A DNA stretch of 52,669 bases from Candidatus Adlerbacteria bacterium (GTDB taxonomy: Bacteria > Patescibacteriota > Minisyncoccia > Phycocordibacterales > SBAW01). The DNA lies in assembly GCA_963749085.1 (NCBI GenBank), contig CAVVLG010000004.1, positions 1 through 52,669 of the forward strand, written 5' to 3'. Made by a program: the position numbers and the translations under genes. Of the stretch, positions 4,500-48,598 are shown piece after piece. Every line of letters starts with the position of its first letter. Within the stretch, counting starts at the first letter, position 1. Below the pieces are notes generated by a model that was not told the origin of the DNA, did no database searches, and worked only from the letters and a program-made list of their open reading frames with translations.

Positions 4500-4500
4500 T

Positions 4501-5646: not shown

Positions 5647-6922
5647 CTACAGAAATATCTAGACAGAAAACAAGAACGAAGGAAACGTACTACGCCGTGA
5701 ATACGGATCCTGTCTTTGATGTTAAGTCGCGCGAGGTGTACAAGGGCAAGCTTTACGAGGTCGTCTTTCCGTTTAATCGACAGGGCAAGCAAAAGTATTC
5801 TTTGGTTTCTGAAATCCACTTCGACGGTGTTAGCCGCCTCGACCTTAAAGGCATGCGTGGAATGACCCGTGGCTATGGGTTTACCCAGGACACAGTTCCG
5901 ATCGTATCTATTTTGAGTGAGAATTTTCCGGGACTCACTAAGGTAGTTATTTCCACAAAAGCATCAACTGTGAATTCTCGCAGAGGAGAATTTATTTTGA
6001 ATGTCGACGACTATAAAACGATTTATTCCACGCTTCGTCCCAAGAACCAGAAACATTCTAAGGATTTACGGATTACAATAAATAATATTCTTGCGCAAGC
6101 TGGAGGTCTCGGGCTGCGAGCGAAGAAGATACCTTATGTGGCCGGGTCCATCAAAGGTATTTTGAGAGAGGTGTCTTCATCAAATAGTAAACTGTCAGAC
6201 TCTGATTCTGCTGCTTTGCTCGATTTTGCCCAGAATCGAATTGAGAACTACGACGTAGATGCGGCAACGCTTATTCACACGAAAGAGAAGATAGATAAGG
6301 TCTACTTCGAGAAAGTTATCGCGCGTTTTGAGAAACTACTTGCTCTCAAAAAAGGTGTCGGCGCAAAGAAGATGGAGCAGAGGTGGCACAACTTCTTTAA
6401 AGATAACTCCTGGATCTTTTCGTACCTGTTTGCTGCACCCCACTTCCTTTTTCAGGACGAGTATTACGTTGGTGGGCAAAAAGGTACGGGCAAAGAAGCA
6501 CGATATGCCGATTTTATCTATAAAAATAAATTGACAGACAGTGCCACAATAATCGAGATTAAAACTCACAGAACGAAAATACTCCACAACACGGCCTATC
6601 GTTCTGCTGGGAAGGTATACCCGATTTCCTCAGATATCACCGGAGCAATAAACCAAGTTCTCGATCAGAAGAACACCCTTCTCAAGAATTACTCAACTGT
6701 GGCTCAGGGTGATTTTGAGATCTTGATCCTCGTTGCGTCATAGTGGTCGGAAACACCAAGGACATCCAAAAGGAGAGGGTAAAGAATTTTGACATGTTCC
6801 GCTCGAATCTGAGGAACATAGAAATCATCTGCTTCGATGAACTATTGGAAAAAGCAAAACTGCTTTTGAGCCACTTCATCAAGCCAAAGGTCTCCAAAAA
6901 GAAAAAGAAGAAGAGAAAGTAA
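5643..6922 (+). pseudogene. Shedu-like DUF4263 PD-(D/E)xK nuclease, interrupted by one frameshift near 6719
   Basis: ATGA overlap with the hsdS stop. Core motifs are ADFIYKN...TIIEIKTH...GAINQVLDQ. The family-typical C-terminus (LDPRCVIVVGNTKD...NIEIICFDELLEKA) continues in another frame from 6719 to stop 6920-6922, 1 nt before the hsdR ATG. Confidence 0.7.
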
Positions 6923-6923
6923 T

Positions 6924-9830
6924 ATGAAATTCAACGAACAATACACGGTAGAAAATCACGTCATCAAGTTTCTCAAGGAGAGGCTTGGTTATGAGTACAT
7001 CAAACCGCAGGAATTTGCGAAGCTCCGTGAGTTTGAGAATGAATATATTATTACCCCTCTCTTGCTTGAGGCGGTCAAAAAGATAAATGGTATAGACGAG
7101 GATGAGGCGCTCTCTGTCGTTCGTGAGGTGAAGAAAATAGATAACAACGAGGCGTTTCTTAAAGCGCTTCGCTATGGCGTAAATCTCAAGGATTCGCAGA
7201 CGGGTAAAATGCGGGACTACCTCATCGTCGACTTTGATAACTTTTCCAATAACCATTTCGTCGTCACAAACCAGTTCTACTTCGAGGGCAACTCCGAGAA
7301 CATTCGCCCCGATGTTTTGATGTTTTTGAACGGCCTTCCAATTGTTGATATTGAGGCCAAGAGTCCAACCGCTGCCAGCAACGTGGACTATTCGAAGGCC
7401 GTAGGGCAGATCAAACGCTACGAGCGCAATGCCTTTAAGCTCTTTTGGCCTAATTGCTTCAACATTGCGACTGATGGGCTCAAGACGGTATACGGCGCGA
7501 CCTATGCCCCGGCGCAGAACTTTCTACATTGGAAGGACGAGGAACTTGAGAAGGTCGAAGATGGCGAGTTGGAGATGACGCTTGTGGCCTTGCTTGAGAA
7601 GGGTCGTCTTTTGGACATTATTCAGAACTTTATTGTGTTTGAGAAAGAGAAGGAGCAGACGGTTAAGAAAATAGCTCGCTACCAACAACTCCGCGCGACA
7701 AACAAGATTGTCGAGCGAGTACTTGGTGGAGAAAAGAAGCGCGGGCTTATCTGGCACACCCAAGGGTCCGGCAAGTCGCTCACGATGTACTTTACTGCTT
7801 GGAAGCTTCGCTTCAACAAGGAACTCAAGAACCCCAAGGTGTTTATTCTCGTTGACCGGATCGACTTGGATGATCAAATTTACGAGACATTTATCAATTG
7901 TGGCGGGAAGAATGTGATACGCGTCGAATCACGTGCCGATTTGGAGCAGAAAATCCAATCTCCCGAGCGTGGGATATTCATCTCCACTATTCAGAAGTTC
8001 TCAGAGCTCGGTGATTCAGTAAAGAGCTTTGACGAGAATGTGATTGTGCTCTCAGACGAAGCGCACCGCGACAATGAAGGTATCTCCGCTATCAACCTAC
8101 GAAGCGCCATGGGCAACGCTTTTTTCTTCGGCTTTACGGGAACACCAATCGACCGTGTCACTCTCAATACGCACCGCAACTTCGGGCAGGAGGGTGAACG
8201 GTATCTGGACTACTACTCTATTCAACAGGCGGTTGATGACGGTGCAACACTTCCGGTGACATACGAGGCGCGGCTCTCAAAGTTCTTCATTGATGAGGAG
8301 AAGCTTGATAAGCAGTTTGAAGAGCTGACTCAGGGGCTCTCAGACAAAGAAAAAGATGCCGTGGCGAAGAAGTACGGCAAGAAGGAAGCAATCGTAAAGC
8401 TCGATAAGCGCATGGAAGCAATTGCCCGCGATATCACCGAACACTATCGGCTCTATGTTGAGCCGTCAGGTTTTAAGGCGCAGATCGTCTGCTATGACCG
8501 CGAGGCAGTAGCTAAGTACAAAAAGCTCCTAGACCAGCTCGTCCCCAAGGAGTGGTCGGAAGTAGTGTATTCGCCTGGCGATCCAAACACTGATACGGAA
8601 GATTTGCGTAAATACAATACGACTAAGGCCAAGCGGGAGAAGATCATCAATGAGTTCAAGGATCCGGCAAGCCCTCTCAAATTCTTGTTGGTCTGCGACA
8701 TGCTCCTCACTGGCTTTGATGCTCCAGTTGAGCAGATAATGTATCTTGATAAGCCGCTCTGGGATCACAATCTCCTGCAGGCAATCGCTCGTACGAACCG
8801 CGTCTACCCAAACAAAGGCGCAGGAAAGGTAATCGACTACTACGGTGTTACCAAAAGTCTTTACAAAGCACTCGACTTTGACGAGAGTGTGGTTGATTCG
8901 GCCATGATCAACATTGATAAGCTCAAGGAAGAGTTTGTCGAAGTGTTTGAGGAGATTATGAACATCTTCACGGGCATCAATATAGAAGATCCGTCCATCG
9001 ATAACTTGCGCCGCTGTCTGAAAATATTTGCCGAGAATCTCGACAAACAAAAGTTCCTCCGTGATAAATACGGCCGGCTCAAACTTTTGTTTGAAATACT
9101 CTCTCCTGACCCCTTCTTGAAGGAACATGTACGTGCCTTTGAGTGGCTCACCAGCGTGTATTTGGCCTTTGATAAGGAATACGGGGCAAATATGTCTGAT
9201 TCAGAACTCCTCGCTGAATATGGCGAGAAGGTAAAGATGCTTATCCAGCAGCGTGTTGACTACGAAGGCATCACCAAAAACTTCCGCGAACTCAACGTGA
9301 ACGATCTCTACGTGATGGAGCGGCTCAATAAGATGGATGATGAGGAGAAAGCGCTCAACCTCGAGAAGATGCTCAAACAGGAAATCTCCATAAACGTTGA
9401 TACCAATCCCGCATACAAAAAATTCAGCGAACGCCTTACCCTTATTCGCAAGGAGTTTGAACAGCACCAGATTGACCTCTCCGAGCGCATAAAACGATAT
9501 CAGCAACTTCTCGAGGACATAAAGAAAAAGGGAGACGAGGCGAAAGAGCTCGGATACTCGCTCAAGGAGTATGGACTCTATGTTATTTCTACTGAATTCA
9601 TTGAGGGAGACAAGGACGTTATTCGGGAGTTCATTAAGGAAATGACAAAGCGGCTTGAAAATATACTCGACGAGGGATGGCAGGAGTCGTCCAAGCGCGA
9701 AGAATTCCTAAAGGAAGTAAAGCGCATCGTCCAGGAGCTTGTGCTCAGGGAGTATAAGGACCGCGTAAAAGTCGCCGACTTCCAAAAATATCTCAACCGA
9801 CTGGTCGATATTGTGATCAAAAAATTCTAG
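6924..9830 (+). CDS. hsdR: Type I restriction enzyme R subunit HsdR
   Basis: 968 aa. N-terminal nuclease motif (PDVLMFLNGLPIVDIEAK), SF2 helicase motifs (HTQGSGKSLT, VLSDEAHR, FGFTGTP, QAIARTNR) and a C-terminal helical domain. Confidence 0.92.
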   Translation: MKFNEQYTVENHVIKFLKERLGYEYIKPQEFAKLREFENEYIITPLLLEAVKKINGIDEDEALSVVREVKKIDNNEAFLKALRYGVNLKDSQTGKMRDYLIVDFDNFSNNHFVVTNQFYFEGNSENIRPDVLMFLNGLPIVDIEAKSPTAASNVDYSKAVGQIKRYERNAFKLFWPNCFNIATDGLKTVYGATYAPAQNFLHWKDEELEKVEDGELEMTLVALLEKGRLLDIIQNFIVFEKEKEQTVKKIARYQQLRATNKIVERVLGGEKKRGLIWHTQGSGKSLTMYFTAWKLRFNKELKNPKVFILVDRIDLDDQIYETFINCGGKNVIRVESRADLEQKIQSPERGIFISTIQKFSELGDSVKSFDENVIVLSDEAHRDNEGISAINLRSAMGNAFFFGFTGTPIDRVTLNTHRNFGQEGERYLDYYSIQQAVDDGATLPVTYEARLSKFFIDEEKLDKQFEELTQGLSDKEKDAVAKKYGKKEAIVKLDKRMEAIARDITEHYRLYVEPSGFKAQIVCYDREAVAKYKKLLDQLVPKEWSEVVYSPGDPNTDTEDLRKYNTTKAKREKIINEFKDPASPLKFLLVCDMLLTGFDAPVEQIMYLDKPLWDHNLLQAIARTNRVYPNKGAGKVIDYYGVTKSLYKALDFDESVVDSAMINIDKLKEEFVEVFEEIMNIFTGINIEDPSIDNLRRCLKIFAENLDKQKFLRDKYGRLKLLFEILSPDPFLKEHVRAFEWLTSVYLAFDKEYGANMSDSELLAEYGEKVKMLIQQRVDYEGITKNFRELNVNDLYVMERLNKMDDEEKALNLEKMLKQEISINVDTNPAYKKFSERLTLIRKEFEQHQIDLSERIKRYQQLLEDIKKKGDEAKELGYSLKEYGLYVISTEFIEGDKDVIREFIKEMTKRLENILDEGWQESSKREEFLKEVKRIVQELVLREYKDRVKVADFQKYLNRLVDIVIKKF

Positions 9831-9832
9831 CT

Positions 9833-10402
9833 ATGAAAAGAGAAATTGCTCTCCAAAATAAAAAGGTCACCTACACCCTCCGGAAGAGCAAGCGAGCAAG
9901 GCGAATGCGCCTTGCAGTGTATTGTGACGGCACGATAGTTGTGACTACGCCATTTGATCTAAAAGAGATGGTTGCGGAGCGGTTTATCCGAGAAAAAAGC
10001 CATTGGCTTTTTTCAAAGATTGCCTTTTTCAAACAATTTAAAGGTCAGGCGATCGCGCGGTATAGCCAGAAGGATTATCTGAAATACAAAAATGATGCAT
10101 ATGAGCTTGCGGTTGAGCGAGTCAATCATTTCAACAAGCCGCACAAATTTAATTTCAATCGGATCAATATTAAAAATCAAAAGACACGCTGGGGCAGTTG
10201 CTCCAGAAAGGGCAACCTCAATTTCAACTATAAGATTGCCCTTTTGCCGCAACCCCTATCGGATTATATTATCGTCCACGAGCTTTGCCATCTAAGAGAA
10301 TTTAATCATTCTAAAAGCTTCTGGAAACTCGTCGCAAAAGTGATTCCGGAGTATGTTGAGATACGAAGCGAGCTTAAAAAGAGCGGGGTGAGTTTTTACT
10401 AG
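9833..10402 (+). CDS. YgjP-like (DUF45) zinc metallopeptidase-fold protein
   Basis: 189 aa. It starts 2 nt after the hsdR stop. HExxH motif in IIVHELCHLREFNHSKSFW, and RWGSCS upstream, as in the YgjP/SprT-like family. Confidence 0.8.
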   Translation: MKREIALQNKKVTYTLRKSKRARRMRLAVYCDGTIVVTTPFDLKEMVAERFIREKSHWLFSKIAFFKQFKGQAIARYSQKDYLKYKNDAYELAVERVNHFNKPHKFNFNRINIKNQKTRWGSCSRKGNLNFNYKIALLPQPLSDYIIVHELCHLREFNHSKSFWKLVAKVIPEYVEIRSELKKSGVSFY

Positions 10403-10411
10403 ACAAACTTT

Positions 10412-11110
10412 ATGAAAAACAAGGACGGATTATGGAAACTAAGCCCAAGCGGGCTGTATAAATACTCGGAATGCCAGTCGTGTTTTTGGGTTGATAATCA
10501 GTATAAGAAAGCGCCGATGTTGCCCCTGTTACTTAACTCAGCGATGGATTCCATTTTGAAGAGCCGCTATGACCAGTTTAGGGCTGAGGGCTTGTTTCCG
10601 CCCGAAGCGTCGGAACTTGTACAAGAAGAAATCAAACCCTTCGCCAATCTCGAGCTATTAAACGAATGGCGGAGTAGCTTGAACGCGTTAAAAGTCACTA
10701 ATAAAACTGCCGGATATGAACTGGTAGGAAAAATCGACGATGTATTAGTCGAGAAGGATGGGAAATTGGTTCCGGCAGACTATAAATCATCCGGCAACCC
10801 GCCTGCAGAGGACAAACAGAAATATTATCGCGACCAACTCGCCGCATATGGTTTTATGTTCCGGCACCACGGTCATAAAGTTTCAGACCGCGCATACCTC
10901 CTCCATTATTTTCCGAAAGATAAAAATGACCCGTCGCTTGCGGTCATGTTTAGTGCCCATGTTGATAAGGTGGATATCGGCTCGATAGATATAGAGCAAA
11001 AACTTATCGACATGGTAGCGCTTCTCGATAGTCCGTATCCGGGCCACAATCCGGATTGCAACACCTGCTCGTACCATGACGGAAGGAGAGGGGTTGCTGT
11101 GAGTGCATAG
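10412..11110 (+). CDS. Cas4-like PD-(D/E)xK nuclease family protein with N- and C-terminal CxxC pairs
   Basis: 232 aa. GKIDDVLVEKDGKLVPADYKSS (D...D-x-K) and YRDQLAAYGF (QxxxY). Cysteines at ECQSC and DCNTC could ligate a metal or Fe-S cluster. Confidence 0.6.
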   Translation: MKNKDGLWKLSPSGLYKYSECQSCFWVDNQYKKAPMLPLLLNSAMDSILKSRYDQFRAEGLFPPEASELVQEEIKPFANLELLNEWRSSLNALKVTNKTAGYELVGKIDDVLVEKDGKLVPADYKSSGNPPAEDKQKYYRDQLAAYGFMFRHHGHKVSDRAYLLHYFPKDKNDPSLAVMFSAHVDKVDIGSIDIEQKLIDMVALLDSPYPGHNPDCNTCSYHDGRRGVAVSA

Positions 11111-13779: not shown

Positions 13780-13867
13780 AATAGCCCCTGTTGGTAACCC
13801 CCTTCGCAACCCCTCATTTCTAAGTTAAGGTGCTGAGTGGTAGCTCTAAGGTGCTATCATAAAGTTC

Positions 13868-14068
13868 TACAATTGAATACCAAGCGAGTAGCCTAAACCG
13901 CCCAAAACGGCATGGTGAAAGTGAGACAAGCCCTGTGACGACAAGAGAACCCATCGTGGGGTAGTCGTCACAGGCCGTATCTGGAAACGGATACGCCAGC
14001 GCAAGCTGGAGCCCCGCGGTGGGCTCTCTCGTATCTGCCGCAGGGTATTACCCAATTTATCCGGCGGT
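13868..14068 (+). promoter_or_regulatory. Promoter-like TACAAT plus ~190-nt structured 5' leader (copy A of a three-member RNA family)
   Basis: TACAAT at 13868-13873. Then, in order: CCUAAAC-hairpin-CAUGG; an 11-bp hairpin (CCUGUGACGAC/GUCGUCACAGG) with apical GAACCC; an 8-bp hairpin capped by GAAA; a CCAGC-GCAA-GCUGG hairpin; GGGCUC. Copies at 26771-26981(-) and 46020-46207(+) have the same block order. Confidence 0.6.
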
Positions 14069-15007
14069 ATGGAAACTCAATATAAATCGTTTAATGGCAT
14101 CCGTAAGTCTTTTGAAAAGCATCCGGTCTGGGGCTCGGTCATCGTGGTCGGTATTTTAGTTTTGTTGGTAAGTATGTTCTCTGGCTCCGGCTCAAGCGGC
14201 AACCAAGGTTCTACCTACGCCGCCAGTGTTCCAACGAGTATCTGCGACACCGACGCGCAGACGCTCAAACAGCAGGCCCAAAAAGTCAGCTACAAACAGC
14301 TCGACAAAGACCCCGGTAGTTTTAGCGGCACCATTGCCACCTTCACAGGGCAGATAGTGCAAATTGAGCAAAGCGGTAACGAGGGCATCATGCGCCTCTC
14401 GGTTACCAAGGAGTCCTACGGCTGGAGCCTCAGCGATATTATCTACGTTACGTATCACCAAGCCACTAATGCCGTCGACGGCGACGTGGTCACCGTTACT
14501 GGTACGCTTACAGGTAGCCAGACCTACACTTCCCAAGCAAACTTCCAAATCACTATACCAAGCCTAGATGTCTGCTCTGTACAGATGGGAGTGGCAAAGT
14601 CGGTCCCTGCCGCGCCGGTCAAAAAGACCACCACCCCCACACCTGCGCCGCAACAAACCTACACCACTCCGAGCGGTGCGGTTGTAGGCAATAGTGGTAA
14701 CGTCGTGAGTCAGCCACCCGCGCCTCCGGCATCGTGGCATATCGTTGCGACCTATAGCGGCCAGACGCAGAAGAACACCTCCACGTTTGTCATACAAGGT
14801 TCGCAGTGGCGCATTACCTGGCAGGAGACGGGTGACGGCTACTTTGGCGCAGACGCTGAGAGTCCCGATGGGAGCGGCAGTTATTGCTCCATCGCAAACC
14901 TCGTCGGCGCAGGTTCCGACTCAACGTATTGCTACAAGCCAGGAACCTACTACCTCTCGGTCAATACCGCTAACCCTTGGACGATGACGGTTGAGGACTA
15001 CTACTAG
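14069..15007 (+). CDS. Membrane-anchored / exported protein (paralogue of 25778-26770)
   Basis: 312 aa. N-terminal TM/signal segment (VWGSVIVVGILVLLVSMF), Ser/Gly spacer, a globular domain, a Pro/Thr linker with TYTTPSGAVVGNSGNVVSQPPAPPASWH, and a C-terminal domain ending VEDYY. Confidence 0.8.
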   Translation: METQYKSFNGIRKSFEKHPVWGSVIVVGILVLLVSMFSGSGSSGNQGSTYAASVPTSICDTDAQTLKQQAQKVSYKQLDKDPGSFSGTIATFTGQIVQIEQSGNEGIMRLSVTKESYGWSLSDIIYVTYHQATNAVDGDVVTVTGTLTGSQTYTSQANFQITIPSLDVCSVQMGVAKSVPAAPVKKTTTPTPAPQQTYTTPSGAVVGNSGNVVSQPPAPPASWHIVATYSGQTQKNTSTFVIQGSQWRITWQETGDGYFGADAESPDGSGSYCSIANLVGAGSDSTYCYKPGTYYLSVNTANPWTMTVEDYY

Positions 15008-16935
15008 TATCCGCGGAAGCGGCGCCGCGCCTCCTCCTGGTTAAGCTGCTGCGCGTGGCGCTGAGACTGTTTATGCCAGGCCAACATATTTGCATCTTGT
15101 GGTTTCATGCCCTCCCGGATTGACTTCTGCTTAAGTTCTTCCAAATCAGGGTCCAGTTGCTTAGGCAGTTTGAATGGCTCCAGCGATTGATTCACGTCCT
15201 GCAGCATAACCAAAGCGGCGTGGCCACTGCGCGACAACTCTTGTTTTTTTCTGAGTACACCGTCTGCCTCAGCCTCCGTCGCCGGTCCTTGCGGGGGAGG
15301 AGGCAGGGACTTGTTTGGGATGGTGAACTTTCCCGTAAGACGGTCGCGGATTTCCGAGTACGCAAACCACAGAGCCATCAGGCTGTCTCCCGTGTGTCCG
15401 TCGGGGAACGCCCGCAACTCATTTACCAGCTGTGACACGAGGCGGCGAGTGCGCGGATCTTTGGCACTAAAGGGTAGTATTATTTTATGCTGTTCGAAGA
15501 GGATGGCAATCGCTGTGACGCCGATGGCGGAGTCGAACTTTTCCTTCCCTGTTTTGAAACTCGTCACCGGCACCCCCAGGTCCTTGAGTTCCTGATACAT
15601 CAACTCTTGCATGCCGTTCGTCTCGACCCGCACGGCCGTCAGGTTGATTCCAATACGGGCGGCTAGATTTCTCGTCTCGTTCGGCGAGAACTTGCCCCGG
15701 TGGATCTGGCGCAGCACGTAGTCGCCATCATTGGTACCAAGTGCTTTCGATCCGTGCCGCACGCGGTCGAGTACGAGGAGCGCCGAGTCATCGCCCCACG
15801 CCTCAAGCGACGCCGCAAGGTCGAGACCGCCTACCTCATAGTCCACGTCGAACTCAGGACGCTTCTCGTCTTGCAATACAAAGTCCTTGCCCTTACCAAG
15901 CGCTATCTCAATATCTTTCTCGGAGAACTTTTGGTTTGGCCTGATGGTAGGGTCGCACATGTACATCCGGGCGAACGAGAATGGATCGGAGATGCGTATG
16001 AGGTACAGATTCTCATACGAAAAGCGCTCGGGCCAGAGAACCTCGACGCCCCGATCCATCTCCGCGCGATGTTCCTCGCGGAATGCCATCGCTTTGTTTA
16101 CTCTCTCCTCTGGGGTCAGGGACTCATCAAGGTGGATATTAGACCACTGGTCCCACAGGTCGCGGCGCACCGATTCGTGCTGGATGGCCGCGAGGCGTTT
16201 TTTAACTTGGAACTGCGGGTCCTTGAGGAGTTCACTCATCAGGTCGTCCTCGTGCCACGGCGTGCCGATCACGATGACGCGGCCCCCCGGCGGCACCAGA
16301 GTCGGCAGAAGCGACTGGCGAAAAAAATCCTTGACCTTCTGGCGCTGTTCCTCACTGGCGCTATTTTCTTGCGTACATACATCATCGACAATGATGAGGT
16401 CGGAGCGCCGTGAAAGCACGGGGCCAAAGAGACCTGCGGCTTCAATGGTCGCATCGCGCATGGCGATAGTGTCACGCTCGATGGTAATAGAGTTTGCCGT
16501 CCAGTTCTCGTCGCGGTTCTGCCTTGCCCGGCGGCGCGGCCTCACGCCGATGCGCATCTCGTCGATTATTTTTGCCCACGCCCGATACCGGGGGTTGCGC
16601 TCAACAATATCAATAATGGCGCCGAGAGACTTTTGCGACAGTTCGCCCGTGCTCGAAACCAAGAGAATACGGATATTGTGATTAAGTGCCATCGCCCATG
16701 CGGGGAGTGCTATAGCCAAATGATTGGTCTTGCCGTGACCGCGCGAAACGGCGACCGCGATATTTTTCATGTACGGGTTCGACAAATACCCGTCAATTTC
16801 GTCGTGGAAGCCCGCGTTCTCCTGCTCAAAACTCATGATCTCGGAGGCGAAGACGGGCAGGCTCTCGGCTGCAAGCCCGCACAAGGCAAGCACTTCTTCG
16901 AACTGTTTGCGTTTTTTTGCGCTAATTTTAGCCAT
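15004..16935 (-). CDS. terL: Phage-type terminase large subunit
   Basis: 643 aa. Walker A SRGHGKT, Walker B LIIVDD, coupling motif GTPWHEDDL, and a C-terminal RNase-H-like nuclease region (GGLDLAAS...). Its stop overlaps the convergent gene stop in CTAG (15004-15007). Confidence 0.85.
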   Translation of the reverse strand: MAKISAKKRKQFEEVLALCGLAAESLPVFASEIMSFEQENAGFHDEIDGYLSNPYMKNIAVAVSRGHGKTNHLAIALPAWAMALNHNIRILLVSSTGELSQKSLGAIIDIVERNPRYRAWAKIIDEMRIGVRPRRRARQNRDENWTANSITIERDTIAMRDATIEAAGLFGPVLSRRSDLIIVDDVCTQENSASEEQRQKVKDFFRQSLLPTLVPPGGRVIVIGTPWHEDDLMSELLKDPQFQVKKRLAAIQHESVRRDLWDQWSNIHLDESLTPEERVNKAMAFREEHRAEMDRGVEVLWPERFSYENLYLIRISDPFSFARMYMCDPTIRPNQKFSEKDIEIALGKGKDFVLQDEKRPEFDVDYEVGGLDLAASLEAWGDDSALLVLDRVRHGSKALGTNDGDYVLRQIHRGKFSPNETRNLAARIGINLTAVRVETNGMQELMYQELKDLGVPVTSFKTGKEKFDSAIGVTAIAILFEQHKIILPFSAKDPRTRRLVSQLVNELRAFPDGHTGDSLMALWFAYSEIRDRLTGKFTIPNKSLPPPPQGPATEAEADGVLRKKQELSRSGHAALVMLQDVNQSLEPFKLPKQLDPDLEELKQKSIREGMKPQDANMLAWHKQSQRHAQQLNQEEARRRFRGY

Positions 16936-16939
16936 ATAG

Positions 16940-17353
16940 TTATGTCTTGCGTTTAGATTTCTTTACAAGGTACGGAGCGAGCATGGCGCGGGTCTTTGGC
17001 TTGAGCGTGGCAAAGAGCTGCAGGATTGTTTCGCCGTCCTCATCCTTCGCCAACGCCGCGCCCACCTGCATGAGGCGCGGGCTGAACGCGGGATGCCGGT
17101 GCGTGAGCCAGAACTTTGTCATCTCATCGTCGCGGTCTTTAACGCCCATAATCACGTTTGACTCCGCGGCGTCGTTTACGAGTTGCACGCCCTCATCTAC
17201 CGCGGCGTCGGCGGCCTTCGCAAATTTCTGATCGCCCTGCCGCCAGCGGTAGTAGCGGCTTTTGCTGATGCCGGTCTTGCGGCACGCCGCCAACACGATG
17301 TGGTTTTCTTTAAGGGCTTCGAGGAAGCGCTTTTTGTCTTTTGCAGTGGTCAT
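16940..17353 (-). CDS. Terminase small-subunit-like HTH protein
   Basis: 137 aa, immediately upstream of terL and overlapping the preceding gene by 4 nt. N-terminal HTH-like LAACRKTGISKSRYYRWRQ. Confidence 0.55.
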   Translation of the reverse strand: MTTAKDKKRFLEALKENHIVLAACRKTGISKSRYYRWRQGDQKFAKAADAAVDEGVQLVNDAAESNVIMGVKDRDDEMTKFWLTHRHPAFSPRLMQVGAALAKDEDGETILQLFATLKPKTRAMLAPYLVKKSKRKT

Positions 17354-18700
17354 ATTTTTTTCGGGGTGATGCCAGTCAGTTTAGTCAGGCGATTCAAAAT
17401 AACGGCCGTATACACGTCACTTTTTTCCATCAGCCGAAATCTGCGTTTGAGCAGATATGCGCTCGCGGCGGTGCTTCCACTCCCGCCGAATGGCTCTAAA
17501 ATTAGATCACCCCGGCGCGTCAGCACTTTGGCGTAGGGAATAAGTAGCTCGACGGGCTTGGTGCCGAAAATAATTCCTTGGCCGGAAGATTTCTGGTCGG
17601 CGGCGATGTGGGAAATAAAATCGGTTGGACAAATTTTCTTGCCTTTTTCATACGGCTCCCAGTGTGGTTTCCCGGCAGTGGCAAACAGGGCATTTTCGTA
17701 TTCGTTTTGCAGCAGTTCTTCTTCGGGCGCGAGATTGAGGCCGCGGAATTTAGCGCCGGTGCCGACCAACGCGATATCGGTTTTATTAAAGAACCGATAC
17801 TTCGCGCTAAAGCCCGAGACGCGGTTCGGCACGTGCCAGGTAATGGTGTTGCGATACCGCCAGTGTTTCTCGAGCTCGTTCCAGATGGTACGGAGATTCT
17901 TCGGGTTCTCGAAGATCAAGATGGAGAAGTCGGGCTTGGCCACACGCGCGACGTTCGCCATCCATTTTTCCGTGAAGTCGGGAGGCAGGACGGCGGTGCC
18001 GAGATATTGCCGGTTGCGCTTGAGGCCGAACCCTTCGGTCGTTTTGCCATGCTTCTTCTTGCCGTTTAAATAATCCAGAAGGTACGGGGGATCTGCTAAG
18101 ACGGAGATCGGCCTTCTCGCCGTCCATGAGTTTGAGCATGTCAGCCTCAACGGTCGAGTCTCCATTCATAACGCGCGAGCCGTCCGGCCACTCGAAAATG
18201 TCGCCATGTTTTATGTCGATGTTTTTGATGTTCAATTTTTGTAGCTCTTTTTGAAGGTCAAAAATCTCGGGGTGCTCCTCGACGGGGAAGATGTTGTCCA
18301 ACTCTTCGGAGGAAAATCCGATGCCGGAGAGCAGCGACTCATCATACTCGGCGAGGAGGCCGAGGTCCCAATCGCCCGTATTTTTATTGAGCCTAATTAT
18401 CAACTCAGCCTCTTTCTTGGCGTCGGGGATGTTGACGTGCACGATCGGCACCGTTTTGTACCCCATCTCTTTAAGCACCTCGAAGCGAAAGTTGCCGCCC
18501 ACAATAATACCGTTGCGCTTAGGCGCGGAGTTGACCACGAGCGGATCGACGACACCATGGCGCTCGATACTCTCACGTAGTTGCTGACGTGCTTCCTTCG
18601 ACCAGACGCGGGGATTTTTCTCAGGATGTCGCAACGAGGAGGGTGGAACATAGACGACGCGGAGATTTTCTTGTAACGACGAACGGTTCTTGATACTCAT
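17350..18700 (-). pseudogene. ParB-like nuclease domain fused to an N6/N4 DNA methyltransferase, split by a one-nt frameshift near 18103
   Basis: The N-terminal ORF has ParB-N motifs (VDPLVVN...IIVGGNFRFEVLKEMGY). The downstream ORF has DPPY and EPFGGSGST. Removing one C in CTCCGT restores ...EKADL-VLADPPY.... Confidence 0.8.
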
Positions 18701-25777: not shown

Positions 25778-26770
25778 TTAGTAATAATCCTCGATGGTCA
25801 CGGTGTAATTGAGATTGTCGGTGTTTGTGTTCAGGTAATACTGCCCGGCGGGCTGGGAATATATGTAGGAGACGTTTTGGGTCGGGCACGATATAGAGTT
25901 CACGAATTGCTGAGTGATGGAATTATCAGTCGAGTCGATGTAGCCGCCGAAGTAACCTGTGTTTTGCATGGACGGTTCGCTGAGTGTGCAGGTATAGCTC
26001 ACGCGCCACTGCGTTCCTTGCAAGGAGAACGGCTGGGTCGATGCGGAAGCCGTGTCGCTGTAGGTGAAGGCGGTGTGCCACGAAGCCGGAGGCGCGGGGG
26101 CCGGAGTGACGACGGTACCCGATGAATTTATTACCGCGCCGTTGGGCGTGGTGTAGGTGGTCTGCGTGGGAGTCGGCGCAGGGGTAGATGGTTGTGCGGG
26201 AGCCTGAGCGGCTGGCGCAGGCGCGGCTGCGCTTGCTTCCTTTATAGTGCACCCGTACATCAACGGTACGGTAATCTGATATCCCGCTTCGGACGTGTAG
26301 GTCTCCGTGCTTTCCAACACGCCGCTCACTTTCACCACGTCATCGTCGACAGCGGCGGTAGTGCCGTCGTATTGGACCAAGACAATGTCGCCGACATTCC
26401 AGTCGCCATACGCGTCTTTATCAACAGCCAAACGTATCTCTCCTTGGCCGTCCGATTCTTGAATCTGAACTACCTGACCGGTGTAGGTAGTGTTCTGGCC
26501 TTGGAATGATGTCGGATCTTTCTCCAGCTGCAAGTAGTTGACCGCCTGAGCGCTTGATGAGGAGTATCCTTGGCAGGCCGCCGCTATTGGATCGGCGGGA
26601 GTATTGGACGAGGCGGTTGACGGAGGAGAGTTTGAAACGCCATTGTTGTTGCTCCCAATTGCAGACGAGAGCACGAGCACTAAAACGATTCCCCCGGTCC
26701 AAAGGAGAAAGCCCTTGAACCCACCGCTCATCTTCTTTTTTTCCGGAGCACCGTCTGCGTTGTCCATCAT
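25778..26770 (-). CDS. Membrane-anchored / exported protein (paralogue of 14069-15007)
   Basis: 330 aa with the same architecture. It shares the linker TYTTPNGAVINSSGTVVTPAPAPPASWH and a C-terminus ending IEDYY. Confidence 0.8.
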   Translation of the reverse strand: MMDNADGAPEKKKMSGGFKGFLLWTGGIVLVLVLSSAIGSNNNGVSNSPPSTASSNTPADPIAAACQGYSSSSAQAVNYLQLEKDPTSFQGQNTTYTGQVVQIQESDGQGEIRLAVDKDAYGDWNVGDIVLVQYDGTTAAVDDDVVKVSGVLESTETYTSEAGYQITVPLMYGCTIKEASAAAPAPAAQAPAQPSTPAPTPTQTTYTTPNGAVINSSGTVVTPAPAPPASWHTAFTYSDTASASTQPFSLQGTQWRVSYTCTLSEPSMQNTGYFGGYIDSTDNSITQQFVNSISCPTQNVSYIYSQPAGQYYLNTNTDNLNYTVTIEDYY

Positions 26771-26981
26771 AAATAAAAAGTCACCGGATAATGTCCGGCG
26801 AAAGGCTGTATAGCACTGAGCCCTGCGCCAGCTGAGCCTTACGGCTCCATACCAGTTTCCCGATATGACCCAATGACGAGTTGCTGAACGCAGGGTTCAG
26901 TATCGTCATTGGGGTACTACGACCATGCCGCTCAAAGAAGTTGAACGGTTTAGGCTGTTGCCTTCCGGCTATTCAGTTGTC
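26771..26981 (-). promoter_or_regulatory. Structured 5' leader, copy B, ending in a terminator-like hairpin + U-tract
   Basis: The reverse complement shows, in order: GACAACTGAATAG; CCUAAACC-hairpin-GCAUGG; an 11-bp stem CCCAAUGACGA/UCGUCAUUGGG; GGUCAUAUCGGGAAACUGGUAUGG (identical to copy C); GAGCC-GUAA-GGCUC; GGGCUC. It ends with CGCCGGA-CAUUA-UCCGGUG followed by ACUUUUUAUUUAUG (the start codon). Confidence 0.6.
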
Positions 26982-29109: not shown

Positions 29110-29159
29110 AAAGGCGGTTGGTTAGCTGGAAAGGTCGTTATAGGTGCTACAATATTTTT

Positions 29160-45915: not shown

Positions 45916-46019
45916 AGTAATTGTAATAGTAATTTCACCTTTAATTTACGCCTTTTTGGGCTATTTTCATAGGGGAAAACACGCTGGTATAAACTGCCTG
46001 TTGTGCTATGGTATCGGTG

Positions 46020-46207
46020 TACAATTGAATAGTTCGGCCTAACCCCGCGGCAACGTGGATATGGCAAAACCAGTCAAGGATAGAGAACCCGTCGCGGGAC
46101 TGCCTTGACTGGTCATATCGGGAAACTGGTATGGGTGGCGCAAGCCTCCGCCCATGTGGCGGGCTCTTTGTTCCCACTTGGATTATTAGCAAGTCCGATC
46201 AAGATAT
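46020..46207 (+). promoter_or_regulatory. Promoter-like TACAAT plus structured 5' leader, copy C
   Basis: TACAATTGAATAG; CCUAAC-(CCGCG-GCAA-CGUGG)-AUAUGG; a 10-bp stem CCAGUCAAGG/CCUUGACUGG with apical GAACCC; GGUCAUAUCGGGAAACUGGUAUGG; GGUGGC-GCAA-GCCUCC; GGGCUC. Confidence 0.6.
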
Positions 46208-48598
46208 ATGAAAAAGATTTTAGTTTTTGTGATAGCGTTCTCGTTCGCAGTTCCCCTGTTTGCAAGCGCCTCCACGTTTTCAAACAATTTGTACTACGGC
46301 CTCACCGGCAACTCGGACGTAACCGCCTTGCAGGAATTCCTGACGCAGCAAGGTGTTTACTCCGGCCCCATCAGCGGCAATTTCTTTTCCCTTACCCTTG
46401 CGGGAGTAAAAAAGTTTCAATCCGCTGAAGGGCATCGTCCCGGTGTCGGGATATGTAGGCCCCATCACTCGGGGGGCGATAAATCAAATCCTCGCGGGGC
46501 AAGTCTCTGGCTCGGAAGGCAACGCCACCGCTACCAAGCCGTTTGTAGATCTGTCGCAACAAACGACAACGCCTTCTTCCAATACGACTTCACCCAGTAA
46601 CTATTCAACCTACAGCCCTCTCACTTTCTCGGAGTTTCAAAACAACCCCGCCAATTACATCGGCCAAAGCATCATTGTCACCGGCATGAACGACTCTTTC
46701 ATCCCAAGCACTGGATCAGCGGGGAGTACCAACTTCGTGGAAGTGGAAAATCCGTTCGATCTCTCACAGCCGAAGTTTGAGCTGGAGATACCGGGCAGCG
46801 GCGACTACGCCGCAGCAGTCAATGCACTTCAAAACAAGAGCGTGCCCGTGCATCTTTTTGTCAGAGCGTACGGCACAGGACTAGCGGATCAGTCGTTTAC
46901 TGAAACCTCTCTCCTCGGCAGCGCTAACGTCTCGCTACCCACCGTTCTTGTCACGCGTCTGGATCAGTGTCTGCAGGGGAGCATGAATACCACTGTGCTT
47001 ACCGGCACCAGCTTCGAGAGTAATTTCTCCTGCTCGCAATGGCAGACGATCTTTCCCGCGGGAGTTGTCCAACCGACACCAACGCAGTCGAACTCGCAAT
47101 CCACCGCACCCACGCCGACCTGCAATTTAAGTGCGTCTCCGTCTTCCATTACTTCTGGCCAATCGTCAGAAATATCATGGAGCTCAACGAATACGACTTC
47201 TGGGTATATATCGGGCATCGGATATCTTTCGTCCCTTAGTAGTTCAATGGAAATCTCGCCAAGCGTGTCAACTAACTACGTAGGCACCTTCTCAGGCTCT
47301 GGCGGCTCCGTGGAGTGTTCGGCCGCAGTGACGGTCTCACAGTCATCCCAAACGTCACAATCGACGTCAGTAACCCCGACCTTGTCAGTGACCAATTCGC
47401 CGCTTGTATATAACGGCTCCCCACAAACGGCAGTCATCAGCAGTTCCATCCCCGGCAACATCGTCAGCGTCGAGTATAACGGCTCTGCAACCGCGCCGAC
47501 CATGCCGGGCACCTATGCGGTCACTGCAGATTTCGCTCCATCAACTAACCCCAACGATTACAGCGCTCGACTATCGGCCGGTAACCTTGTCATCAACGCT
47601 GGAAGCTCTACCGTAACCCCGGCCAACCAAACCATTAGCTTCGGCTCCAGTAACAACGACGTTCTTCAAAACGTGACATATGGGATCGTCGGTTTCACCG
47701 TAGACGCACAGGCGAGTTCCGGATTAGGGGTAAGCTTCACCGCACAGGGAGCCTGCACTGTCACGAATGACGGGGCTACCATTGCCACGGGGCTTGGCAC
47801 GGGTAGCGTCTTAATCACTGGCACTGGAAGTTGCACCATCACGGCCAGCCAGGCGGGTAACGAGTATTATAATCCGGCGCCTAATGTCAGTCAGACCTTT
47901 ACCATTAATCCAGCTCCATCATCCGCACCCAGTTCAGATGCGAACTTAAGCGCTCTGGCATATAACGGAACGGCTGTCAGCGGATTCGACAGCACTACCT
48001 ATAAGTACGTCGTCGATCTGCCGGACGGGTCGACCGCAGTTGCGCCTTTGGCCGCCACGGCTGATAACGGAAGCGCTACGGTCGTCGTTACTCAGGCATC
48101 GCCGTGCCGGGGGAAGCGACCGTCTGCGTGACGGCGGGGGACGGCGTGACCCACCAGACCTATACCGCGTACTTCCTTGTTACCGGTTCGGGGCAATGCG
48201 ACTTCAACGGAGACGTCTTCTCCTGTGCGGCTAACCCTTGGATGACTATTAGCCTGACATCTCTGCCGAGCGGTACTGTCGGAGCGAATTACAGCGAGCC
48301 GCTGACGCTCACTGACCCGCTCACCTCATCGCAAATTGTCCAATGGAACATTATCAGTGGCCAAATGCCTCCGGGTATCGGTATCGCGTTCTCGCCGAAC
48401 TACGCGATTGAGTGCTCCGGCACCTATTGCTACTTCACGACACCGCCGAGTGAGAGATATTCGGCCACCAGCCCGGGTTCCTTCTTCGGGACGCCCACGG
48501 CAGCCGGGACTTATAGCTTCACGCTGCAGGCGATTGACGCCGTGAATGCCACTCTTCCGACATTCACTATCACGATCGCGAGTTCGACGACAAACTAG
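46208..48598 (+). pseudogene. Large exported surface protein with two frameshifts (signal peptide, peptidoglycan-binding domain, Ser/Thr-rich and Ig-like/cadherin-like repeats)
   Basis: MKKILVFVIAFSFAVPLFASA signal. PG_binding-like GNSDVTALQEFLTQQGVYSGPISGNF...KKFQSAEG continues as IVPVSGYVGPITRGAIN in another frame (~46432). The cadherin-like block SDANLSALAYNG...TYKYVVDLP...ATVVVTQAS continues as AVPGEATVCVTAGDGVTHQTYTAYF after a second shift (~48095). Confidence 0.7.

What the first reader, a model, noticed from the sequence alone, without database searches (positions are those of the whole stretch)
13868..14068. A conserved ~150-nt structured RNA leader occurs three times, each in front of an exported-protein gene (copy A)
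The three 5' regions are 13868-14068 (+), 26771-26981 (-) and 46020-46207 (+). All three share the same ordered blocks:
- ACAAYTGAATAG, in which TACAAT would serve as a -10 box;
- CCUAA(A/C)-hairpin-(C/U)AUGG, which resembles the 11-nt GAAA-tetraloop receptor CCUAAG/UAUGG;
- a 10-11 bp hairpin whose stems differ in every copy but stay complementary (CCUGUGACGAC/GUCGUCACAGG; CCCAAUGACGA/UCGUCAUUGGG; CCAGUCAAGG/CCUUGACUGG), with a conserved apical GAACCC;
- an 8-bp hairpin capped by GAAA;
- a short hairpin capped by GCAA or GUAA with covarying stems (CCAGC/GCUGG, GAGCC/GGCUC, GGUGGC/GCCUCC);
- a closing GGGCUC.

Compensatory changes plus a tetraloop/receptor pair argue for a folded, functional RNA, either a riboswitch-like element or a protein-binding leader. 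I could not match it to any riboswitch class I know. The three downstream genes all encode envelope or exported proteins, and each sits on a different mobile element.
Basis: seen in the sequence. Interest (0 to 1): 0.8.

Follow-up and report, generated by a model that had tools for sequence, protein, structure and literature searches.

The report
LOOT RNA leaders on prophage genes
The three repeats belong to a catalogued RNA family of unknown function (LOOT, Rfam RF03000) and sit as 5' leaders in front of membrane or secreted-protein genes on phage-like elements; about 120 relatives show two mutually exclusive conserved folds, which points to an on/off switch and not to a free-standing small RNA.

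Summary
All three regions share the described blocks and compensatory stems. The RNA is not unknown: all three copies match Rfam RF03000 (LOOT RNA) over the full model at 60-80 bits, above the 46.4-bit cut-off.

I compared about 120 further LOOT loci, nearly all from Patescibacteria (CPR) genomes. The results go beyond the 121-nt Rfam model:
- The ACAAYUKAAUA block lies at the predicted transcript 5' end. It is not the -10 box.
This helix cannot coexist with the long stem P2, and in 92% of loci a U-tract follows it.
- The 3' strand of that helix has a second partner downstream.
- In about a fifth of loci an exact copy of the P2 5' arm lies 1-8 nt before the start codon.
- A same-strand ORF follows in every evaluable locus, and 71% of these proteins have an N-terminal hydrophobic segment.

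Best reading: a cis-acting two-state leader (attenuator) for prophage cargo genes, with an unknown trigger. The family is known; the switch anatomy may be new.

The parts
13855..13860 (+). Copy A: -10-like hexamer TATCAT, preceded by TGC (13852-13854)
   Evidence: Sequence.
13869..13879 (+). Copy A: conserved 5' block ACAATTGAATA, the predicted first bases of the transcript
   Evidence: No pairing partner was found.
13890..14009 (+). Copy A: LOOT core (Rfam RF03000). P1 13891-13915; P2 13932-13942/13964-13974; P4 13976-13995 (GAAA loop); P5 13996-14009 (GCAA loop).
   Evidence: 60.0 bits, E 7.4e-9, model positions 1-121.
13945..13961 (+). Copy A: segment X (GAGAACCCAUCGUGGGG), the 5' strand of the long-range helix Px. 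It lies in the apical part of the P2 hairpin.
   Evidence: pairs verified base by base.
14012..14028 (+). Copy A: segment Y (CCCCGCGGUGGGCUCUC), the 3' strand of Px, followed by a weak U-rich run (UCGUAUCU). Y 14016-14023 can alternatively pair with Z 14034-14041.
14069..15007 (+). Gene A: 312 aa with an N-terminal membrane anchor; paralogue of gene B (39% identity)
26970..26980 (-). Copy B: 5' block ACAACTGAATA. A weak -10-like TACGAT lies at 26993-26988.
26834..26956 (-). Copy B: LOOT core. P2 26913-26903/26879-26869; P4 26867-26848; P5 26847-26834.
   Evidence: 80.1 bits, E 1.5e-13.
26883..26901 (-). Copy B: segment X (ACUGAACCCUGCGUUCAGC)
26815..26832 (-). Copy B: segment Y (GCUGGCGCAGGGCUCAGU). 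No U-tract follows it in this copy.
26771..26801 (-). Copy B: canonical terminator-like hairpin UCGCCGGA-CAUUA-UCCGGUGA plus CUUUUUAUUU, ending at the start codon. Its 3' arm (26787-26780) is complementary to the P2 3' arm.
25778..26770 (-). Gene B: 330 aa with an N-terminal membrane anchor. It heads a same-strand run of genes ending in primase, an HTH protein and a tyrosine integrase next to tRNA-Met.
46007..46012 (+). Copy C: -10-like TATGGT, preceded by TGC (46004-46006)
46021..46031 (+). Copy C: 5' block ACAATTGAATA
46036..46149 (+). Copy C: LOOT core. P2 46070-46079/46103-46112; P4 46114-46133; P5 46134-46149.
   Evidence: 74.5 bits, E 2.9e-12.
46083..46094 (+). Copy C: segment X (GAGAACCCGUCG)
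46157..46168 (+). Copy C: segment Y (UGGCGGGCUCUU), followed by UGUU. Y can also pair with 46170-46177.
46195..46203 (+). Copy C: a2 (CCGAUCAAG), a near-copy of the P2 5' arm 4 nt before the AUG. It is complementary to the P2 3' arm in 8 of 9 positions.
   Evidence: Sequence.
46208..48131 (+). Gene C: signal peptide plus PG_binding_1, then an MBG domain. A frameshift near 46440 splits it into two ORFs (46208-46600 and 46443-48131).

Best explanation
Each copy is a member of the LOOT RNA family (Rfam RF03000) and is used as a cis-acting 5' leader of a cargo gene on a phage-like element.

Transcription starts at the conserved ACAAYUKAAUA block, a few bases after a -10 box. The leader can adopt two mutually exclusive, evolutionarily maintained folds.

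- State A is the Rfam fold: receptor hairpin P1, long stem P2 with a small apical hairpin P3, GAAA hairpin P4, and GNRA or UUCG hairpin P5. In this state the segment after P5 (Y) is free or pairs with a downstream segment (Z), and the stretch just before the start codon is open.
- State B: the apical part of the long hairpin (X, the 'GAACCC' block) pairs over 17-20 bp with Y (the 'GGGCUC' block). This is sterically incompatible with P2. In most family members it makes a GC-rich helix directly followed by a U-tract, which resembles an intrinsic terminator with a structured loop of about 50-60 nt. The released P2 3' arm can then pair with a copy of the P2 5' arm (a2) that sits 1-8 nt before the AUG in a subset of loci.

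State A would therefore allow expression of the downstream membrane or secreted protein, and state B would end transcription early and/or mask the start site.

Shown here: family membership, the promoter position, the four covarying pairings, their mutual exclusivity, and the link to a downstream ORF. Inferred: that termination and masking really occur, which state is ON, and that something shifts the balance. Candidates for that something are tertiary docking of the GAAA loop into the receptor, Mg2+, a ligand or a protein.
For: Family membership and sampling:
- All three copies match RF03000 over the full model.
- 17 of 18 sampled relatives pass the Rfam cut-off.

Promoter:
- A -10-like hexamer ends 5-10 nt before the block in 87/95 loci, against 17-28/95 in controls.

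X:Y pairing (Px):
- RNAduplex gives a cognate mean of -28.8 kcal/mol, against -19.7 for non-cognate pairs and -16.2 for shuffled tails. The cognate tail is in the top 10% in 72% of 123 loci.
- The sense strand is stronger than the antisense strand in 110/123 loci, and 18% of pairs are G.U.
- On a sequence-only MAFFT alignment, 15 of 17 pairs show changes on both sides and 91% of cells are paired. The covariation score is 0.538 against 0.208 when shuffled (0/500) and at most 0.152 when slid.
- RNAalifold on the same alignment predicts Px by itself.

Exclusivity and energetics:
- X starts 0 nt after the P2 5' arm and ends 1-3 nt before the P2 3' arm.
- MFE folds split 43 with Px and 70 with P2.
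- In the window copies the two forced states differ by at most about 3 kcal/mol.

Expression platform:
- 92% of loci have at least 5 U in the 8 nt after the helix.
- Y:Z pairing has a cognate mean of -12.3 against -9.6; the cognate is in the top 10% in 48% of loci.
- An exact copy of at least 8 nt of the locus's own P2 5' arm occurs before the AUG in 22/105 loci, against 24/2086 for non-cognate pairs. It ends 1-8 nt before the AUG in 19 of those 22.

Downstream genes:
- 119 of 126 loci have a same-strand ORF, and the other 7 are cut by the end of the stored sequence. The ORF starts a median of 37 nt after the U-tract, and in 10% of loci at most 14 nt after it, which leaves no room for a separate promoter.
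- 71% of downstream proteins have an N-terminal hydrophobic segment, against 20% of background ORFs (p = 2e-29).
Against: - There are no experimental data. All structures and energies are predictions.
- Rfam types the family as 'Gene; sRNA'.
- The terminator-like helix has a loop of about 50-60 nt holding two hairpins, which is not the classical intrinsic-terminator form.
- In window copies A and B the U-tract is poor (CUCUCUCGU and CUCAGUGCU). Termination at that point is doubtful for them. Copy B instead has a separate canonical terminator whose logic I could not resolve.
- The a2 copy is seen in only about 21-35% of loci, and copy A has only a weak version.
- The downstream genes fall into 75 unrelated clusters. 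This does not fit a metabolite-specific riboswitch, and no ligand pocket is evident.
- The conserved 5' block has no explained role.
- The relatives were sampled with a sequence pattern that fixes part of P4, so the statements hold for that subset of the family.
Confidence: 0.6

Rival explanations
1. LOOT is a trans-acting small RNA, as Rfam types it. The functional product is the roughly 165-nt RNA that ends at the U-tract after the X:Y helix, and the ORF behind it is expressed incidentally by read-through. In a sharper form, it acts like the phage P4 CI or P1 c4 immunity RNAs: the exposed X hairpin of accumulated LOOT RNA pairs in trans with Y on nascent transcripts of the same or related elements and causes termination, with the variable X/Y sequence setting specificity.
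For: - Rfam type 'Gene; sRNA'.
- A strong promoter plus a helix and U-tract would yield a discrete small RNA.
- X/Y sequences differ between elements and covary.
- X of copy C pairs about as well with Y of copy A as with its own Y.
- The setting is prophages or satellites that carry primases.
Against: - Every evaluable locus has a same-strand ORF close behind, often with no room for its own promoter.
- Copies of the P2 5' arm sit right at the start codon and Y:Z pairing is maintained. Both make sense only in cis.
- No other strong sense-strand target of X exists in the 52-kb window.
Confidence: 0.18
2. LOOT is a constitutive structured leader without switching. The compact fold, or the long X:Y duplex, stabilises the mRNA 5' end, enhances translation of SD-less messages, or provides an RNase III processing site. 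The alternative pairings are steps of one folding pathway.
For: - The downstream genes are heterogeneous, as expected for a generic expression module for prophage cargo genes.
- A 17-20 bp duplex is long enough for RNase III (established knowledge, not tested here).
- SD-like motifs are rare before these ORFs, 10/119, but they are also rare in the background, 131/1018.
Against: - Two sterically exclusive helices (P2 and Px) are each maintained by covariation.
- They are near-isoenergetic in all three window copies.
- The U-tract is conserved as U's instead of covarying freely.
- The a2 and Z partners fit a two-state scheme.
Confidence: 0.14
3. LOOT is a classical metabolite-binding riboswitch, a special case of the best explanation. 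A small molecule such as an ion or a nucleotide second messenger binds the LOOT fold and stabilises state A.
For: - The RNA has an aptamer-like conserved fold with a tetraloop-receptor contact.
- It has an expression platform of mutually exclusive helices.
Against: - The downstream genes are 75 unrelated clusters of mostly uncharacterised surface proteins on mobile elements, not a pathway.
- The hairpins are strung in series without a closed multi-helix junction, and the conserved unpaired bases are mainly the receptor, the tetraloops and A-rich linkers.
Confidence: 0.15
4. The complementarity is a DNA-level feature, such as an inverted repeat that serves as a recombinase or repressor site, and not an RNA structure.
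For: - Large serine recombinase genes are the commonest upstream neighbour, 15-16 of 114.
- The 5' block is conserved as sequence without a pairing partner.
Against: - X:Y is stronger on the sense strand in 110/123 loci and uses 18% G.U pairs, which would be A.C mismatches on the other strand.
- Most loci have no recombinase next to them.
- The whole unit scores as a structured RNA in Rfam.
Confidence: 0.03

Closest known systems
LOOT RNA motif (Rfam RF03000; Weinberg et al. 2017, PMC5737381; shown as a 'metagenomic-based RNA' in the Rfam 14 paper, PMC7779021)
   Same: The match covers the full length of the model. It has the same five helices, the GAAA tetraloop, the receptor-like internal loop and GNRA caps. 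Relatives occur in uncultivated bacteria.
   Different: The Rfam model stops at P5 and types the RNA as an sRNA. Here and in about 120 relatives the conserved unit is longer. It adds a 5' block at the transcript start, a 3' segment that pairs with the apex of the long hairpin, a U-tract, further alternative partners, and an ORF. Whether the original supplement already noted any of this could not be checked, because the file is not held.
Transcription attenuators and terminator-type riboswitches (for example the four-segment trp-leader logic, or tetraloop-receptor aptamers such as c-di-GMP-I); from general knowledge
   Same: There are mutually exclusive helices. One is a GC-rich stem followed by a U-tract, and its 5' strand is buried in the conserved fold. 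A downstream 'locking' partner (Y:Z) and a start-site-masking partner (a':a2) are also present.
   Different: No ligand, leader peptide or binding protein is known. The terminator 5' strand lies in the middle of the fold, so two hairpins sit in the terminator loop. The regulated genes share no pathway.
Phage cis-acting antiterminator RNAs (HK022 put; the EAR element); from general knowledge
   Same: They are structured RNAs placed directly after a promoter on a phage or prophage, upstream of terminator-like signals, and they act on their own transcript.
   Different: There is no sequence or structure similarity, and nothing here tests for an interaction with RNA polymerase. LOOT carries its own alternative pairing, which put and EAR do not need.
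Phage immunity RNAs P4 CI and P1/P7 c4 (Rfam C4 family); from general knowledge
   Same: They are leader-derived RNAs of prophages or satellites. An exposed segment is complementary to sites on the same transcript, and pairing leads to premature termination or translational block. Specificity comes from variable complementary sequences.
   Different: Rfam found no C4-type match in the window. The LOOT targets found here lie in the same leader only. Processing into a stable RNA is not shown.
11-nt GAAA tetraloop receptor (CCUAAG...UAUGG); from general knowledge
   Same: CCUAA on one strand faces AUGG on the other in P1, and a GAAA-capped 8-bp hairpin (P4) lies in the same RNA.
   Different: The closing position differs. 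It is A opposite C in copies A and B (CCUAAA/CAUGG) and C opposite U in copy C (CCUAAC/UAUGG), where the canonical motif has G.U. Docking cannot be tested with these tools.

Membership tests
LOOT RNA (Rfam RF03000) | Covariance-model score at or above the curated gathering score (46.4 bits) over the whole model | tested here: met
   60.0, 80.1 and 74.5 bits, model positions 1-121 of 121, E-values 7e-9 to 1.5e-13.
LOOT RNA (Rfam RF03000) | Helices P1-P5 kept by compensatory changes | tested here: met
   for the three copies. In one search, P2 has 9 of 10, P4 has 4 of 8 and P5 has 5 of 5 pairs with changes on both sides across 119 distinct sequences. The local P3 hairpin forms in different registers in different subgroups.
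LOOT RNA (Rfam RF03000) | GAAA tetraloop on P4 and a receptor-like CCUAA / AUGG internal loop in P1 | tested here: met
   Both were also part of the search pattern used for relatives, so their conservation in that set is by construction.
LOOT RNA (Rfam RF03000) | Occurrence in uncultivated or metagenomic bacteria | tested here: inconclusive
   of 80 listed relatives, 62 are labelled as CPR/Patescibacteria lineages, 10 as unclassified bacteria and 8 otherwise. The organism of the window itself was not identified; one search gives only a Logan run accession.
Trans-acting sRNA gene (Rfam's type for LOOT) | An independent transcription unit that is not systematically joined to a downstream coding sequence | tested here: not met
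   a same-strand ORF is present in 119 of 126 loci (the other 7 are truncated). The median gap is 37 nt after the U-tract, and 10% of loci have a gap of at most 14 nt.
Riboswitch | A conserved structured domain plus an expression platform with mutually exclusive pairings | tested here: met
   (computational only).
Riboswitch | Direct binding of a small-molecule ligand | not testable with these tools
   This needs in-line probing, ITC or structure determination.
Riboswitch | Downstream genes share a function related to the ligand | tested here: not met
   75 clusters. The only shared feature is membrane or secreted location.
Intrinsic (Rho-independent) terminator | A GC-rich stem immediately followed by a U-rich tract | tested here: inconclusive
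   92% of 120 relatives have at least 5 U in 8 nt directly after the GGG of helix Px. The window copies are weaker: C is CUCUUUGUU, A is CUCUCUCGU and B is CUCAGUGCU. The loop of about 50-60 nt is not classical. Copy B has a separate canonical terminator at 26801-26771.
11-nt GAAA tetraloop receptor | CCUAAG paired with UAUGG, including the closing G.U | tested here: not met
   the copies have CCUAAA/CAUGG (A, B) and CCUAAC/UAUGG (C). This is a variant at the closing position, and function as a receptor remains possible.

The most novel reading that the evidence does not exclude
LOOT is not a trans-acting sRNA. It is a new class of cis-acting two-state leader with a combined transcriptional and translational platform. 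The catalogued fold is the ON state. A hidden 17-20 bp helix plus U-tract, together with masking of the start site by the released stem arm, is the OFF state. The leader gates expression of superinfection-exclusion-type surface proteins from prophages across the Candidate Phyla Radiation, in response to an as yet unknown ligand, ion or factor.
Probability: 0.45. Interest if true: 0.75.

Novelty: new member of a known kind. Interest (0 to 1): 0.55.

Why it matters
- LOOT is one of many 'orphan' structured RNAs found by comparative genomics whose function is unknown.
- It is widespread in Patescibacteria (CPR). This is a very large and mostly uncultivated part of bacterial diversity for which almost no regulatory RNAs are understood.
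- The data give a concrete and testable anatomy: a promoter, a transcript start, two exclusive folds, and partners at the terminator and at the start codon.
- They also give a biological setting: cargo genes for surface proteins next to recombinases on prophage-like elements. Some of these genes belong to families annotated as superinfection immunity or exclusion (Ltp, Imm).
- If confirmed, Rfam's typing of the family would change from sRNA to cis-regulatory, and a new kind of switch would be described.
- It would also supply a native promoter-leader module for the Saccharibacteria that can now be manipulated genetically (PMC10633639).

Tried and rejected
- **Partner for the 5' block:** I looked for a pairing partner of ACAAYUKAAUA in P1, the P2/P3 region, P5 plus Y, and the pre-AUG region. 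Observed duplex energies were no better than with a shuffled block. The block stays unexplained.
- **DNA-level inverted repeat:** rejected because of the sense/antisense asymmetry and the G.U content.
- **Trans targets of X in the window:** none beyond the cognate Y segments.
- **att sites of the elements:** direct-repeat searches found no clear duplication of a tRNA 3' end. The only candidate is a 15-nt match of the tRNA-Asp 5' end at 49328-49342, which is weak.
- **Simple terminator scan around copy A:** it finds nothing at the leader, as expected for a helix with a long loop.
- **First whole-leader MAFFT alignment:** it misaligned P2/P3. It was replaced by alignment A4, which covers a shorter region.
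- **Population-wide comparison with whole segments forced unpaired:** this was not a fair comparison of the two states and is not used (second half).
- **Literature:** no paper in the library discusses LOOT function. The supplement of the discovery paper is not held.
- **Public sequence collections:** no match in GenBank phage records or PLSDB plasmids.
- **Sign of regulation for copy B:** a relay between Y:Z and the downstream terminator is not supported thermodynamically.
Full report
**1. The observation.** I read the three regions directly and aligned them. These are the ACAAYTGAATA block, the CCUAA(A/C)-hairpin-(C/U)AUGG block, the long stem, GAACCC, the 8-bp GAAA hairpin, the short GNRA hairpin and GGGCUC.

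In copy A the ACAAYTGAATA block is followed by C, not G. The long stem differs in each copy but stays complementary. In copy A it reads CCUGUGACGAC/GUCGUCACAGG at 13932-13942 and 13964-13974, as predicted. The short GNRA hairpin covaries, with one U.U mismatch in copy C.

**2. What it is called.** An Rfam scan of the window at the curated thresholds finds RF03000, 'LOOT RNA', at 13890-14009 (+), 26956-26834 (-) and 46036-46149 (+). The scores are 60.0, 80.1 and 74.5 bits against a cut-off of 46.4, and each match covers model positions 1-121.

The family comes from Weinberg et al. 2017 (PMC5737381). The Rfam 14 paper shows it as a 'metagenomic-based RNA' (PMC7779021). The CaCoFold paper mentions it for an unusual number of 'cross-covariations' (PMC7657543). 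No paper in the library discusses a function. The supplement that describes the motif is not held. Rfam types it 'Gene; sRNA'.

**3. Relatives.** I searched with a pattern built from the receptor and P4: GCCTAANC..ATGG..GNCNTANCNNGAAANNGNTANG.

Of the 80 listed titles, 62 name CPR/Patescibacteria lineages (Saccharibacteria, Paceibacterota/Parcubacteria, Microgenomates and others). Ten are unclassified bacteria and 8 carry other labels. Of 18 sampled loci, 17 pass the Rfam LOOT cut-off. The exception is a Bathyarchaeota contig that is probably a chance match to the pattern.

Two caveats apply. The pattern fixes part of P4, so what follows holds for that subset of the family. A few loci are near-duplicates.

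**4. The 5' side.** I anchored on the ACAAYTKAATA block, which scores at least 9 of 11 in 97 of 126 loci against 17 of 126 after shuffling. A -10-like hexamer with A at position 2, T at position 6 and at least 4 of 6 matches ends 5-10 nt upstream of the block's first A in 87 of 95 loci, most often 6 nt upstream. The figures in two controls are 17 and 28 of 95. In 41 of those 87 loci the hexamer has a TGn extension.

In the window the -10 is TGC-TATCAT (13852-13860) for copy A and TGC-TATGGT (46004-46012) for copy C. Copy B has only a weak TACGAT. The block has no detectable pairing partner anywhere in the leader, and its role is unexplained.

**5. The 3' side: a hidden helix.** The sequence after P5 is not part of the Rfam model, but it is as conserved as the core: ACCYGUGGUGGGCUUUUUGU or GCUGGCGKGGRGCUUUGUGU. 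It is complementary over about 17-20 nt to the apical part of the long hairpin. That part is an A-rich run plus the small P3 hairpin, for example AUAAAGAACCCAUCAUGGGG.

In the window the pairs are:
- copy A: GAGAACCCAUCGUGGGG (13945-13961) with CCCCGCGGUGGGCUCUC (14012-14028);
- copy B: ACUGAACCCUGCG... (26901-26883) with ...CGCAGGGCUCAGU (26832-26815);
- copy C: GAGAACCCGUCG (46083-46094) with UGGCGGGCUCUU (46157-46168).

Each has the same A.C mismatch.

Evidence that Px is selected:
- Cognate X:Y duplexes average -28.8 kcal/mol, against -19.7 for non-cognate pairs and -16.2 for shuffled tails. The cognate tail ranks in the top 10% in 72% of 123 loci.
- The sense strand pairs better than the antisense strand in 110 of 123 loci, and 18% of pairs are G.U. 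This argues for RNA and not for a DNA inverted repeat.
- On a sequence-only MAFFT alignment (A4), 15 of the 17 Px pairs show changes on both sides and 91% of cells are paired. The same figure is 78-80% for P2 and 79% for P5. The whole-structure covariation score of 0.538 exceeds all 500 shuffles (mean 0.208) and all slid registers (at most 0.152).
- RNAalifold on that alignment predicts Px, P4 and P5 by itself.

**6. Two exclusive folds.** X begins directly after the P2 5' arm and ends 1-3 nt before the P2 3' arm. A helix of this length cannot be the loop of a closed P2 stem, so P2 and Px exclude each other. Both are maintained by covariation.

Predicted energies are balanced. For transcripts ending at the U-tract, the minimum-energy fold has Px in 43 loci and P2 in 70. 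For the three window copies, forcing P2 or forcing Px gives:
- to the U-tract: -66.1/-66.4 (A), -71.3/-73.2 (B), -64.6/-65.0 (C) kcal/mol;
- for the full leaders: -85.2/-88.3 (A), -88.3/-89.1 (B), -72.6/-71.6 (C) kcal/mol.

Directly after the GC-rich part of Px, 92% of 120 relatives have at least 5 U in 8 nt. An A-rich run, a GC-rich stem and a U-tract together make up the form of an intrinsic terminator, except that the loop is about 50-60 nt and holds the P2 3' arm, P4 and P5. In the window this U-tract is good only in copy C (CUCUUUGUU). It is weak in A (CUCUCUCGU) and absent in B (CUCAGUGCU). Copy B instead has a canonical hairpin plus CUUUUUAUUU at 26801-26771, ending at the start codon.

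**7. Two more alternative partners.** Y can also pair with a segment Z just downstream of the U-tract. The cognate mean is -12.3 against -9.6 for non-cognate pairs, and the cognate is in the top 10% in 48% of 105 loci.

In 22 of 105 loci an exact copy of the locus's own P2 5' arm, 8 to 17 nt long, lies between the U-tract and the AUG. I call it a2. It ends 1-8 nt before the AUG in 19 of the 22. Non-cognate pairs share that much in only 24 of 2086 comparisons.

The P2 3' arm pairs best with its own pre-AUG region. It is the top-ranked of 100 arms in 18 loci and in the top 10% in 35%. A control with the 5' arm gives 10%. Copy C has such a copy (CCGAUCAAG, 46195-46203, 4 nt before the AUG). Copy B has a wobble-rich one inside its terminator. 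Copy A has only a weak one.

**8. What lies downstream and around.** A same-strand ORF follows in 119 of 126 loci, and the other 7 are cut by the end of the stored sequence. It starts a median of 37 nt after the U-tract, and at most 14 nt after it in a tenth of loci, which leaves no room for a promoter of its own.

The proteins fall into 75 BLAST clusters. Even so, 71% have a strongly hydrophobic stretch within the first 90 residues, against 20% of 938 other ORFs in the same loci (odds ratio 10, p = 2e-29).

Pfam matches are scattered. They include DUF4352, tRNA_anti-like, zinc ribbons, PG_binding_1, the 'host cell surface-exposed lipoprotein' Ltp family and 'superinfection immunity protein'. 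The commonest upstream neighbour, usually divergent, is a large serine recombinase, in 15-16 of 114 loci. The IMG/VR contigs carry recombinases, ParB/methylase genes and terminase domains (GpA_ATPase, Terminase_6C).

In the window:
- Copy B heads a same-strand run of genes: gene B, two unknown genes, a primase, an HTH protein and a tyrosine integrase, next to tRNA-Met.
- Copy C is in a block with a serine recombinase (partial match) and a primase next to tRNA-Asp.
- Copy A abuts terminase large and small subunit genes and a ParB/methylase pair.
- Genes A and B are paralogues at 39% identity.

From general knowledge, small surface proteins next to the integrase and expressed from the prophage are typical superinfection-exclusion or lysogenic-conversion genes. 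That reading is an inference.

**9. The model.** The segments in order are a, X, a', P4, P5, Y, U-tract, Z, a2, AUG.
- State A has a:a' (P2), the local P3 hairpin and Y:Z. There is no terminator helix and the start site is open.
- State B has X:Y (Px with the U-tract) and a':a2. Transcription stops early or the start site is masked.

Each segment has a partner in one or both states, and the two sets of pairings exclude each other. The four pairings and their exclusivity are shown computationally. Inferred are that termination and masking really occur, that state A is the ON state, and that something shifts the balance. The GAAA loop and the receptor-like motif suggest that tertiary docking, and therefore Mg2+ or a bound factor, could stabilise state A.

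**10. Rivals.**
- *A purely trans-acting sRNA* does not fit the invariable ORF, or the a2 and Z partners. A terminated LOOT RNA could still act in trans as well, in the manner of phage P4 CI RNA; this is the most interesting variant.
- *A constitutive stabilising or processing leader* is possible, but it does not explain two exclusive helices kept in energetic balance.
- *A metabolite-specific riboswitch* is hard to reconcile with 75 unrelated gene clusters.
- *A DNA-level repeat* is rejected by the strand asymmetry.

**11. Verdict.** The family is known, so the finding is a new set of members of a known kind, not a new RNA class. What may be new is the extended anatomy and the cis-regulatory reading. 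I could not check this against the original supplement.

Noticed in passing
window 46208-48131: Gene C is split by a frameshift near 46440. The ORF at 46208-46600 and the ORF at 46443-48131 both align to consecutive parts of a single 549-aa protein downstream of the LOOT copy in IMG/VR locus L001. It is either a pseudogene or an assembly error.
   Followed up: partly
window 51267-52560 and 17350-18700: Two more apparent frameshifts. A pyridine-nucleotide disulphide oxidoreductase is split into 51267-52025 and 51982-52560. The ParB_N and N6_N4 methylase ORFs overlap at 17807-18165. Several broken frames in one window suggest sequencing errors rather than decay.
   Followed up: no
window 2676-11110: Defence island: type I restriction-modification (HsdM 2676-4499, HsdS 4501-5646, HsdR 6924-9830) with a Shedu SduA_C-domain gene inserted at 5643-6743. 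It is followed by a YgjP-like metallopeptidase and a PD-(D/E)XK nuclease. A large serine recombinase lies upstream at 1274-2620 (-).
   Followed up: no
window 29118-32744: Two D12-class (Dam-like) adenine methyltransferase genes followed by an AlwI-family restriction endonuclease gene.
   Followed up: no
window 34220-38006: DNA-damage cluster: RmuC, a Y-family polymerase (IMS), an S24 LexA-like peptidase and an SRAP protein. The same block occurs on a 15-kb Logan contig (run ERR12036785).
   Followed up: partly
window 15004-17353 (-): Terminase large subunit (phrog_38, E 3e-71) and small subunit genes lie convergent with gene A. No head or tail genes were recognised nearby. This could be a degraded prophage or a satellite-like element.
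   Followed up: partly
window 38799-38813 and 49328-49342: A 15-nt near-repeat of the 5' end of tRNA-Asp (TGCGGGAGTAGCTCA / TGCTGGAGTAGCTCA) lies 10.5 kb apart and brackets the recombinase-primase-LOOT-C block. These may be attachment-site remnants. The second copy lies inside a DruA-like ORF, so it may be chance.
   Followed up: partly
window 13869-13879, 26980-26970, 46021-46031 and about 100 related loci: The 11-nt block ACAAYUKAAUA at the predicted transcript start is among the most conserved parts of the unit, yet it has no detectable pairing partner. Its role is unexplained; it could be a protein site, a tertiary contact or an initially transcribed signal.
   Followed up: yes
alignment A4 columns 40 and 142 (window 13949/14024, 26896/26820, 46087/46164): A conserved A.C mismatch interrupts helix Px between the A/U-rich part and the GC-rich part in 82 of 119 sequences. 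In one subgroup it is a G-C pair.
   Followed up: partly
loci L006-L025: tRNA genes lie within a few kb of the LOOT copy in 7 of 18 sampled loci. This is consistent with tRNA-targeting integrative elements.
   Followed up: no
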